A stretch of 61,177 nucleotides of DNA, counting the filler, from Hausera hauseri (Eukaryota): assembly GCA_046269625.1 (NCBI GenBank). It is 9 parts of 9 records of this genome, joined end to end, with 100 filler letters (N's around TTAATTAATTAA, not from the genome) between each part and the next. Parts side by side here need not be neighbours in the genome. Positions count along the whole stretch, not along the records: positions 55,084 to 61,177 come from JBJURY010141649.1; 8 more parts are not named here. One strand, 5' to 3'. This document shows positions 59,676 to 61,019 of the stretch, in pieces. A program made the position numbers and the translations under genes. Positions within the stretch are counted from its first letter, which is position 1. Each line of letters opens with the position of its first letter. A model generated the notes under the pieces. The model ran no database searches, was not told the origin of the DNA, and was given only the letters and a program-made list of their open reading frames with translations.

Positions 59676-61019
59676 ATGTATATGATAACCGTTGTGCTGT
59701 TATTAAGTTTTTCTCCTATTCAGTTGACTGATCATATTGTAGTGTCTAAAGAAATCCAATCGGTAACCCGTAGCAAGAATTGGTACGAAAACGCGAAGAC
59801 CCATCTCCTCAACGCGAACGCGTCAAATCAATATTATGTGATAATTAACGATAACACATACAGTCTAAACTATTCACTGGTACAGCAAATCCCTAACAAT
59901 CTAAAGGGATATTCACAAAGCAACCGCTCATTGGCCCTAGTACAAATGACGAAAGCAACGTCATTCTTTATCGAAGACCTCGTAAGTTTTCCGGAGAAGT
60001 TCCACAGTCTTAACGTTTATAATATCTCTGGACGATTTCAACTCAAGACGAAAGATAACAAAACGCAACAGCAAGGCGATCTGATAAATCTAGACCCAAA
60101 TCATGCCATCAATCTAGAATATCAATTTATCAAAAAGAATTTAATTAAAGTTCGGTCCTTAGCCAACAGAATCATGTTCGGCATTGAAGTCATTAAATCG
60201 GAAAATGTTTGGCTATCTCCACCTCCAGGAAAGATGTTCAATTTAGTAGAACCAGATTATCTGAAATACAATACTAAATCTTACAGACGTACACTAACAA
60301 TAAATAACGAAGATATAGTTATTGCAGCCGTCAATCTCGCCTACGATCAGCAGAACCAGTTAACCCCTTTGGAATGTTCAATAATCAATCTGAAAGGAGA
60401 CACGTTGTTCTACGCACTCATCACGCCTAGACAACGAATCAATAACTTCGATACCCACCTTACGGGTTTATCGGAGTTAAATATAAATAATCAAATGGAC
60501 TCAAATGTCTTCCATCAGAAAGTGACAGAAATTTTGAATGATAAGATGGTCGTCGGAGCCGCTGTAATGGACATGTTGACCAAACACCTAAAGTGTCCAC
60601 TTCGACGGATTATAGGGATTCGCGACATTCTTTATCACGAATCCGTAATCCAGAAGTATAAAATGGATAATCCCACCTATAAGGATTTGGCTAAAAGATT
60701 TTACGACATGCGTGGCATGCCGTTACGAAGTACAGCCTTGGTACAGTGTTACCAGGCAATATATAATACACTCCGATGGGATGATGCAATTATTAATGAA
60801 GATACGGCCTCCGACCAGGTCCTAAAAAGACCACGGGAAATATCGCAACGAAAAAGACGGATAGAAATTGAAGAAGAGATATTAGTGGATGGAGAGATAT
60901 TTGTACCAGATCTCCTCAGATATAAAGCCTCTTCCGGAAAAACAATATTCTGTTCATTGCCAGCCAACCCACAAAATTTGGGTCAAATTTCTTCAGACCC
61001 CCATCGTATTGATCAGTAG
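59676..61019 (+). CDS. 447-aa ORF: hydrophobic N-terminus, unknown region, inactive REX4/ISG20-like DEDDh exonuclease domain (about 60309-60779), basic NLS-like C-terminal patch
   Basis: CSIINLKGDTLF..ITP..INNFDTHLTGL..V.EILNDKMVVG..IRD..PTYKDLAKRF follows the REX4/ISG20 pattern (VSIVN..G.VLY..VKP..VTDYRT..SGI..LL.GRILVGH..IRDT..PSLK.LA), but the catalytic acidic residues are replaced. Confidence 0.7.
   Translation: MYMITVVLLLSFSPIQLTDHIVVSKEIQSVTRSKNWYENAKTHLLNANASNQYYVIINDNTYSLNYSLVQQIPNNLKGYSQSNRSLALVQMTKATSFFIEDLVSFPEKFHSLNVYNISGRFQLKTKDNKTQQQGDLINLDPNHAINLEYQFIKKNLIKVRSLANRIMFGIEVIKSENVWLSPPPGKMFNLVEPDYLKYNTKSYRRTLTINNEDIVIAAVNLAYDQQNQLTPLECSIINLKGDTLFYALITPRQRINNFDTHLTGLSELNINNQMDSNVFHQKVTEILNDKMVVGAAVMDMLTKHLKCPLRRIIGIRDILYHESVIQKYKMDNPTYKDLAKRFYDMRGMPLRSTALVQCYQAIYNTLRWDDAIINEDTASDQVLKRPREISQRKRRIEIEEEILVDGEIFVPDLLRYKASSGKTIFCSLPANPQNLGQISSDPHRIDQ

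What the first reader, a model, noticed from the sequence alone, without database searches (positions are those of the whole stretch)
59676..61019. Retroelement-borne catalytically dead REX4/ISG20-like DEDDh exonuclease
Seen: an intact 447-aa ORF whose C-terminal part (about 60309-60779) tracks the REX4/ISG20/REX1 fold pattern, but ExoI DxE reads A-V-N, ExoII GHxxxxD reads GAAVMDM, and ExoIII HxxxxD is absent. It has a hydrophobic N-terminus and a KRPR..RKRR basic patch. Established: ISG20 is an antiviral RNase, DEDDh nucleases trim small RNAs, and dead DEDD domains (e.g. Exuperantia) act as RNA binders. Inference: an RNA-shielding or decoy anti-silencing accessory protein. Together with the FN3 env-like protein, this would define an unusual retrovirus-like Gypsy lineage and is the best candidate for a new system in this window. 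No 3' LTR is visible before the window ends, so membership in the element is not proven.
Basis: partly seen in the sequence, partly recalled or inferred. Interest (0 to 1): 0.85.

Follow-up and report, generated by a model that had tools for sequence, protein, structure and literature searches.

The report
Retroelement's disarmed AlkB-exonuclease fusion protein
Right behind the polymerase gene of a retrovirus-like transposon, and likely part of it, lies a gene whose protein is predicted to join an AlkB-like fold to an RNA-trimming enzyme fold, lacks all five cutting residues, and likely holds RNA instead of cutting it, while many relatives keep those residues.

Summary
The ORF is real, and its C-terminal half is an ISG20/REX4-type DEDDh fold (Z 16.6 to ISG20). 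All five catalytic residues are replaced (A218, N220, M300, L350, L355), also in a 61%-identical homologue, so this is not decay of one copy. This two-domain protein is a family: 15 of 29 rows keep the DEDDh motif, 12 have lost it and 2 are cut short. All 7 loci fetched for intact members (one assembly) show LTR-element context: a polypurine tract and LTR start follow the gene in 5, and a 3,000-residue gag-env-pol polyprotein precedes it in 2. The RTs of those 2 are among the best matches to the window's RT. Accessory ORFs there start at splice acceptors, so the 'hydrophobic N-terminus' is probably a translated acceptor tract. In relatives the fusogen lies before the protease, so the FN3-like protein is probably not the env. 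The window's contig ends before any LTR. An RNA-holding role is inferred; anti-silencing is untested. Verdict: new variant of a known kind.

The parts
54984..55083 (.). Assembly linker (N44, 12-nt all-frame stop, N44); the left edge of the contig, so upstream DNA is not contiguous
   Evidence: 8 such linkers in the window
55084..55650 (+). Protease-to-RT region of the Gypsy polyprotein, broken by stops at 55275-77 and 55497-99 and a frameshift near 55665
   Evidence: tblastn to P0047 494-657, L006 1657-1756
55651..56517 (+). Reverse transcriptase and start of RNase H, ending at a stop (56515-17)
   Evidence: RVT_1 E 1.4e-32; 55-56% identity to L006 and L007 RT
56518..58100 (+). RNase H and integrase
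   Evidence: Integrase_H2C2 E 1.1e-18, rve E 1.1e-12
58153..59564 (+). In-frame post-integrase membrane protein: signal-like segment, FN3-like repeats, transmembrane segment and basic tail, in four pieces (frameshifts near 58760, 59000, 59435). Probably not the envelope fusogen.
   Evidence: motif shared with L006, L007; fibronectin E 1.4 only; fusogen lies before the protease in L006, L007
59565..59742 (+). Spacer with acceptor-like AGs at 59722-23 and 59741-42. No ATG directly follows either in this copy. Codons 1-23 of the called ORF lie here and are probably not protein.
   Evidence: sequence; pattern in relatives; 7 of 23 identical to P0002; table 4 (one-base indels at 59676-82 in some copies)
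59676..61019 (+). Called ORF, 447 aa (P0001): AlkB-like domain, DEDDh pseudo-nuclease and tail
59730..60206 (+). Predicted AlkB-like double-stranded beta-helix domain (aa 19-177) without HxD/E...H
   Evidence: ALKBH6 Z 12.6, rmsd 3.5, 154 aligned; ALKBH7 Z 11.4; E 1.9e-6
60312..60788 (+). ISG20/REX4-like DEDDh domain (aa 213-371) with all five catalytic positions replaced: A218, N220, M300, L350, L355
60825..60860 (+). Basic patch K384-R395, like a bipartite nuclear localisation signal
   Evidence: KKRR in P0002; a run of 3 or more K/R in 15 of 27 family tails (no background control)
60864..60971 (+). Short C-terminal module shared with P0002 and P0020
   Evidence: two-sequence profile hits P0020, E 8.8e-5 among family tails
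61020..61177 (+). 3' flank; no polypurine-tract/TG motif before the window ends
   Evidence: pattern found in L001-L005, not in the window; an X2 contig covers 60872-61177

Best explanation
The ORF sits 111 bases behind a Gypsy polyprotein and is likely an accessory gene of that retrovirus-like element, encoding a predicted AlkB-like fold fused to an ISG20/REX4-type fold that lacks all five catalytic residues and likely holds RNA without cutting it. Shown: the position, the residue losses (also in P0002), the two-domain family, and in relatives the LTR context and acceptor-led ORF starts. Inferred: the protein is made from a spliced subgenomic RNA (donor just behind the primer-binding site, as in L001) and enters the nucleus by its basic patch. 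In members with an intact motif, the AlkB-like domain would bind RNA and feed 3' ends to the nuclease. In this lineage the same two domains would hold element RNA or occupy the partners of host 3'-5' exonucleases, protecting the transcripts. About 0.85 for 'element-borne pseudo-nuclease kept by selection'; about 0.4 for the RNA-holding, protective role. This copy of the element is broken in several places, and its own ORF may not be translatable.
For: Fold: (pLDDT 81). Residue loss shared with P0002. Both domains are more conserved between P0001 and P0002 than linker plus tail: 102/154 and 106/159 against 41/96, Fisher p 4e-4 and 2e-4. Context: 7 of 7 fetched loci show LTR-element context. A PPT-like motif and TG follow the gene in L001-L005, and L001 continues LTR, primer-binding site, donor-like site, gag. 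L006 and L007 put the gene after a 3,006/3,062-aa polyprotein. They were found through the exonuclease, yet their RTs have the highest identity to the window's RT among 122 compared (55-56%). Many diverged copies lie in one run: contigs 8-19% different on the ORF, and depth on the ORF similar to the post-integrase region. Acceptor motif before 17 of 24 ORF starts against 14 of 1047 other ATGs. Precedent: dead DEDD proteins that bind RNA (Maelstrom, EXD1; PMC5408684 passage) and a Gypsy AlkB that binds RNA (PMC9289625 abstract).
Against: No RNA-binding or expression data. ISG20L2's RNA contacts M186, R226 and W229 (PMC10899777) read L221, D259 and L262, and the nuclease domain is near neutral (net +1). 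None of the 15 intact members has R226 either, so this test is blunt. All 7 loci come from one assembly and were picked by an intact-motif pattern, so no other dead member's context was seen. No LTR or PPT lies in the window's contig. The window's RT joins L006/L007 only weakly (SH-aLRT 83). Selection rests on one protein pair with no DNA for P0002. The confident model needed the alignment with intact members; a two-sequence model had pLDDT 29. Summed contig depth is not a copy number.
Confidence: 0.55

Rival explanations
1. Protein-binding scaffold or decoy: the dead two-domain protein binds proteins (host REX4/ISG20 partners, silencing factors, or the active version made by sister elements) and not RNA.
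For: Canonical RNA contacts are lost and the domain is near neutral. Positions outside the active site stay near-invariant in dead members (R252 12/12, D275 12/12, G314 12/12, R316 11/12). Neighbouring accessory genes in relatives are protein-level effectors (RING, IAP-like RING, TRAF).
Against: Both domains come from nucleic-acid-binding folds; the AlkB-like domain is net basic in P0001 and P0002 (+6, +7). No partner is known.
Confidence: 0.22
2. Still an enzyme, by a rearranged site, as is reported for some Maelstrom proteins (recalled).
For: P0001 and P0002 share acidic residues E233 and D299 near the lost ones; the intact members have Ser at 233 (15 of 15) and never Asp at 299.
Against: All five DEDDh positions are non-acidic and non-His. 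D299 is one residue off on a helix. A Glu on that strand occurs in DnaQ-type enzymes without binding metal (recalled). No residue-level superposition was available.
Confidence: 0.08
3. A functionless relic carried along by the element after the nuclease was lost.
For: This copy is broken upstream, and the open frame alone is not significant (p about 0.12). Dead members have long branches.
Against: P0001 and P0002 are both open over 447 codons at 61% identity, with the same replacements and more conservation in the domains than in the linkers. 12 dead rows keep the full two-domain layout.
Confidence: 0.08
4. A host gene, or an unrelated repeat, that lies next to the element by chance.
For: No LTR or PPT in 61020-61177, and the contig ends there.
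Against: No intron; same strand; 111 nt after the polyprotein stop. The order matches L007 (gene directly after the polyprotein). Many diverged copies. The family forms no clade with cellular REX4-like rows except long-branch P0038.
Confidence: 0.04
5. A secreted or membrane-anchored protein that uses the hydrophobic N-terminus.
For: Residues 3-13 are hydrophobic (mean 2.4), as in P0002 (3.05), P0005 and P0014.
Against: Only 4 of 28 full-length rows show it (the fragment P0024 set aside). It is the least conserved part (7/23). In P0001, P0002 and P0014 it ends in Gln, as an in-frame CAG acceptor would. Some copies have one-base indels at the first codons. The tail carries an NLS-like patch.
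Confidence: 0.03

Closest known systems
Human ISG20 / ISG20L2 (REX4 group of DEDDh exonucleases)
   Same: Fold of aa 213-371 (Z 16.6; profile E 1.2e-28 to ISG20L2).
   Different: All five catalytic residues and the three tested RNA contacts are replaced; fused to an AlkB-like domain; encoded beside a Gypsy pol.
DEDDy exonuclease ORF3 of bdelloid Juno and Vesta LTR retrotransposons (PMC5408684, passages)
   Same: A 3'-5' exonuclease captured as an extra ORF behind pol. Its motif is DEED, and 10 of the 15 intact members here also have Glu at the second Asp.
   Different: Those are RNase D-like DEDDy with intact residues and no second domain reported; this is DEDDh, fused, and dead in 12 of 29 rows.
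Orchid Gypsy AlkB m6A demethylase (PMC9289625, abstract and passages)
   Same: An AlkB-fold accessory ORF in a large Gypsy element.
   Different: That one keeps HxD/E...H and RxxxxxR and is active; here the motifs are missing across the family, sequence identity to AlkB structures is 5-13%, and the domain is fused to a nuclease fold.
Burro/GYPSM1 giant planarian elements and GAG-ENV-POL errantiviruses (PMC6431247 section 7; PMC13524379 passages)
   Same: Relatives L006 and L007 have a viral fusogen in frame before the protease; L002 and L004 carry TRAF/MATH and RING accessory ORFs.
   Different: Polyproteins of about 3,000 aa or more against 4,873-5,140 aa. No exonuclease or AlkB is named in the section read, and neither word occurs in the main text of PMC13524379. 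No sequence comparison with Burro was possible.
Dead DEDD RNA binders Maelstrom, EXD1, Exuperantia
   Same: A DEDD fold without catalytic residues (Exuperantia Z 9.6).
   Different: Host proteins from other branches of the fold; ISG20 fits far better (Z 16.6). An analogy only.

Membership tests
DEDDh exonucleases, ISG20/REX4 group | DnaQ-like fold closest to ISG20 | tested here: met
DEDDh exonucleases, ISG20/REX4 group | D, E, D, H, D catalytic residues | tested here: not met
   A218, N220, M300, L350, L355; A, N, T, L, L in P0002
DEDDh exonucleases, ISG20/REX4 group | RNA-contact residues M186, R226, W229 of ISG20L2 | tested here: not met
   L221, D259, L262 by alignment; R226 is also absent in 15 of 15 intact members
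DEDDh exonucleases, ISG20/REX4 group | 3'-5' exonuclease activity | not testable with these tools
   needs an assay
AlkB / 2OG-Fe(II) dioxygenases | Double-stranded beta-helix fold with AlkB-type surroundings | tested here: met
   aa 19-177: ALKBH6 Z 12.6, ALKBH7 11.4, OsALKBH1 11.4; cupins 9-9.5. Predicted model; the domain was not folded alone.
AlkB / 2OG-Fe(II) dioxygenases | HxD/E...H iron ligands | tested here: not met
   no H-x-D/E in aa 94-106 and no His in aa 152-161 of P0001; 3 of 29 rows have the first, 2 of 29 the second, none both. Windows were chosen from predicted strands and a recalled motif layout, not from a superposition.
AlkB / 2OG-Fe(II) dioxygenases | RxxxxxR 2-oxoglutarate motif | tested here: not met
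   R165...E171 in P0001 and P0002; Glu at the second place in 23 of 29 rows; same caveat
Ty3/Gypsy LTR element (this locus) | RT-RNase H-integrase order directly upstream, same strand | tested here: met
Ty3/Gypsy LTR element (this locus) | ORF lies between LTRs, before a PPT | tested here: inconclusive
   The contig ends 158 nt after the stop with no PPT; met in relatives L001-L005
Ty3/Gypsy LTR element (this locus) | Many diverged copies | tested here: met
   contigs with 58/311, 55/292 and 26/325 differences on the ORF; depth in all 7 ORF bins of X1 and X2; X1 may be the source sample
Burro-like / GAG-ENV-POL errantiviruses | Fusogen in frame between gag and pol | tested here: inconclusive
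   The window's contig starts downstream of that place; met in L006 and L007 (PF24664, E 8.7e-84 and 4.7e-94, before the protease)
Burro-like / GAG-ENV-POL errantiviruses | RT groups with named Burro elements | not tested
   no Burro sequence was available from a tool
Bdelloid DEDDy ORF3 pool | RNase D-like DEDDy type | tested here: not met
   best folds are DEDDh; intact members have His at ExoIII (15 of 15)

The most novel reading that the evidence does not exclude
An invertebrate Gypsy lineage built like a complex retrovirus (fusogen inside gag-pol, a major splice donor behind the primer-binding site, a row of acceptor-led accessory genes) carries its own RNA-surveillance module. A non-catalytic AlkB fold reads modified RNA and a DEDDh domain either destroys the bound RNA (active members, e.g. 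against small silencing RNAs) or clamps its 3' end (dead members such as this one). That would be a transposon-encoded suppressor of RNA silencing that comes in natural enzyme and pseudo-enzyme versions.
Probability: 0.2. Interest if true: 0.85.

Novelty: new variant of a known kind. Interest (0 to 1): 0.6.

Why it matters
Few accessory genes of animal LTR elements have a known biochemical role, and whether such elements encode counter-silencing proteins is an open question. This family joins two folds that mobile elements were known to capture separately (a DEDD exonuclease in rotifer elements, AlkB in orchid elements). I did not find the fusion in nine searches of the paper library. Natural intact and dead versions exist side by side, which gives a ready comparison for nuclease, RNA-binding and silencing assays. 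The relatives also show retrovirus-style splicing signals for a row of RING, TRAF and nuclease genes. Pfam misses this copy entirely, so standard annotation would leave it unseen.

Tried and rejected
No whole genome is held for the window. Pfam found nothing for P0001 or P0002. The two-sequence fold was useless (pLDDT 29). Viral contigs gave no relatives in 4 scans. The word-index search with the family profile returned only 2 known rows. ESM Atlas: whole protein 0.90 to RNase_T clusters (a lead); N-terminal domain at most 0.83, no family. Rfam: 0 hits in 55084-61177. Sequencing runs: no RNA holder listed. Repeated independent loss of catalysis was not shown: the tree needs 2 changes (bootstrap 2-4), and a single origin is not rejected (p-AU 0.10; 32 rows; fragments P0024, P0027, P0033, P0034, P0035 and the three-repeat P0025 left out). 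The host was not determined. Earlier findings of this scan: none. No complex prediction was run, since no partner is claimed. Rejected: 'signal peptide' and 'FN3 protein is the env' (see rivals and full report). The Burro primary paper was not held; its supplements and Repbase entries may already annotate this ORF.

Full report
1. Setting. The window is a chain of contigs joined by 100-base N-linkers (8 found), so only 55084-61177 is contiguous with the finding. It holds RT, RNase H and integrase of a Ty3/Gypsy element. In frame behind the integrase comes a signal-like segment, a beta-rich part, a transmembrane segment and a tail ending at 59564. This polyprotein is broken: stops at 55275, 55497 and 56515, and frameshifts near 55665, 58760, 59000 and 59435. 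Other copies read differently at those places, so the breaks belong to this copy. The ORF starts 111 nt later on the same strand.

2. The nuclease domain. P0001 has no Pfam hit and weak PDB hits to ISG20L2 (E 0.002) and ISG20 (E 0.094). One close homologue exists, P0002 (61%, E 8.7e-167). An exhaustive search gave 37 hits. I kept 29 rows as the family (P0001 plus 28). I dropped 3 fragments without the N-terminal part, 5 cellular REX4-like proteins and 1 three-repeat protein. A model from 32 sequences is confident (pLDDT 81), and residues 213-371 match ISG20 best (Z 16.6; E 6.8e-8). Against a cellular REX4-like row the five catalytic positions read A218, N220, M300, L350 and L355, and A, N, T, L, L in P0002. 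In the family, 15 of 29 rows keep D-E-D/E-H-D, 12 have lost at least four of five, and 2 are cut short. 'Intact' means motif only. The tree does not tell one loss from several.

3. The missed domain. Residues 19-177 match AlkB-type dioxygenases (ALKBH6 Z 12.6, rmsd 3.5, 154 aligned; ALKBH7 11.4). Among viral structures the top hits include plant-virus replicases and 2OG oxygenases (aligned ranges not given). The family shares this domain (P73 27/27, N74 26/27, E171 23/29). The iron motif HxD/E...H and RxxxxxR (as named in PMC9289625) are not found at the expected strands in P0001 or jointly in any row. That mapping rests on predicted strands and a recalled layout. The domain is therefore likely a non-catalytic binding module throughout the family.

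4. Selection. P0001 and P0002 are identical at 102/154 (AlkB-like), 106/159 (DEDDh), 15/35 (linker), 26/61 (tail) and 7/23 (first codons); domains against linker plus tail p 2e-4 to 4e-4. This is one pair, at protein level. The open frame in this copy is not itself significant (p about 0.12).

5. Is it part of the element? Seven loci were fetched with intact members (7 of 372 pattern hits confirmed; one assembly, so not independent). In L001-L005 a PPT-like motif and TG follow the gene within about 90-160 nt. L001 continues through an LTR of about 1.6 kb ending in CA, a primer-binding site (tRNA-Lys type, recalled), a donor-like site and gag. L006 and L007 place the gene behind polyproteins of 3,006 and 3,062 aa (both cut at the locus edge) with a Monjiviricetes-type fusogen before the protease. 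Their RTs are 55-56% identical to the window's, the highest of 122 compared, although tree support for grouping is weak (SH-aLRT 83; 51 of 122 rows used). L002 and L004 carry RING, IAP-like RING, TRAF and coiled-coil ORFs ahead of the gene. Contigs of three runs cover the ORF with copies up to 19% different, at summed depth like the post-integrase region (X1: 980-3,620 against 1,370-7,570; not a copy number). The window's flank shows no PPT. In L006 and L007 further ORFs follow the gene, so that is not surprising. Membership is strongly inferred, not seen.

6. Expression and the N-terminus. In the loci, 17 of 24 ORF starts directly follow T[TG][TC]AG, against 14 of 1047 other ATGs (the pattern was chosen after viewing, and L001-L004 are related). 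With the donor-like site in L001 this suggests cis-splicing as in complex retroviruses; trans-splicing is not excluded. The window has such AGs at 59722-23 and 59741-42 but no ATG beside them, while P0002 has Gln-Met at the matching place. A hydrophobic start occurs in 4 of 28 full-length rows. I read it as a translated T-rich acceptor tract. Whether this copy makes protein is open.

7. The 'env'. L006, L007 and P0047 also have a post-integrase signal, beta-rich part and TM segment, and L006 and L007 share an FN3-like motif with the window. Their fusogen lies elsewhere. The window's protein is thus likely a second membrane accessory protein; its FN3 identity is weak.

8. Mechanism. Best reading: an element-borne, nuclear, two-domain pseudo-enzyme that holds RNA without cutting it (0.55 overall; about 0.4 for the RNA-holding role). 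Against it: ISG20L2's RNA contacts are not kept and the domain is near neutral. Rivals: protein scaffold or decoy 0.22, altered enzyme 0.08, relic 0.08, host gene 0.04, secreted 0.03. Anti-silencing is a hypothesis only.

9. What is in print. PMC5408684 (passages on DEDD): DEDDy ORF3 in rotifer LTR elements, intact, function unknown. PMC9289625 (abstract and passages): active AlkB in orchid Gypsy. PMC6431247 (section 7 whole, passages): Burro layout, no exonuclease named there. PMC13524379 (passages and term counts in the main text): GAG-ENV-POL elements in nematodes, bryozoans and flatworms; 'exonuclease' and 'AlkB' 0 times. PMC10899777, PMC7968707 and PMC8532177: passages only. Nine searches (listings seen) showed no AlkB-DEDDh fusion or dead DEDDh in an LTR element. 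No supplements were read, and the Burro primary paper and Repbase were out of reach.

10. Verdict. Observation partly confirmed, interpretation partly supported. New variant of a known kind (accessory-gene capture by large env-bearing Gypsy elements), with a protein architecture I could not find described. Interest 0.6; boldest reading p 0.2, interest 0.85 if true.

Noticed in passing
window 8885-9511 (+): A 208-aa ORF that by eye resembles a rolling-circle Rep endonuclease of small ssDNA viruses (H-L-H-V-L-I, then Y-x-x-K); no Pfam hit at E<=1. The label is recalled.
   Followed up: no
window 20600-22675, 31480-32770, 33860-34130 (-): Remnants of other, more distant Gypsy RT and integrase genes on separate contigs.
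   Followed up: no
window 38130-49756: A contig of T-rich 4-base repeats; the many ORFs listed there are artefacts.
   Followed up: partly
L002:54-1845 and L004:1-3999: Rows of accessory genes: RING, IAP-like RING and a TRAF-like protein (RING, zinc finger, MATH), most starting at a splice-acceptor motif.
   Followed up: partly
L001:3002-4960: PPT-like motif (C-rich in L001-L004, G-rich in L005), LTR, primer-binding site, donor-like site and gag in one contig: a tandem or collapsed circular assembly.
   Followed up: partly
L001-L004, about 30-50 nt before accessory ATGs: A recurring CACCA motif upstream of many acceptors (by eye); role unknown.
   Followed up: no
window 59540-59690: Far more contigs cover the end of the membrane-protein tail and the spacer (61 at 59553) than the start of the ORF (7 at 59723) in run X1: perhaps a conserved cis-signal, or shared with elements lacking this gene.
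   Followed up: no
P0005 residues 746-791: A dead family member carries a C-terminal RING finger (Pfam E 2.6e-7), linking the family to ubiquitin signalling.
   Followed up: no
L006 and L007 polyproteins: Two protease-like stretches and a Monjiviricetes-type fusogen ahead of RT in one frame of over 3,000 codons.
   Followed up: partly
window 1679-4867 (+): A 1,062-aa charged, low-complexity ORF without Pfam hits on another contig, probably a large host exon.
   Followed up: no
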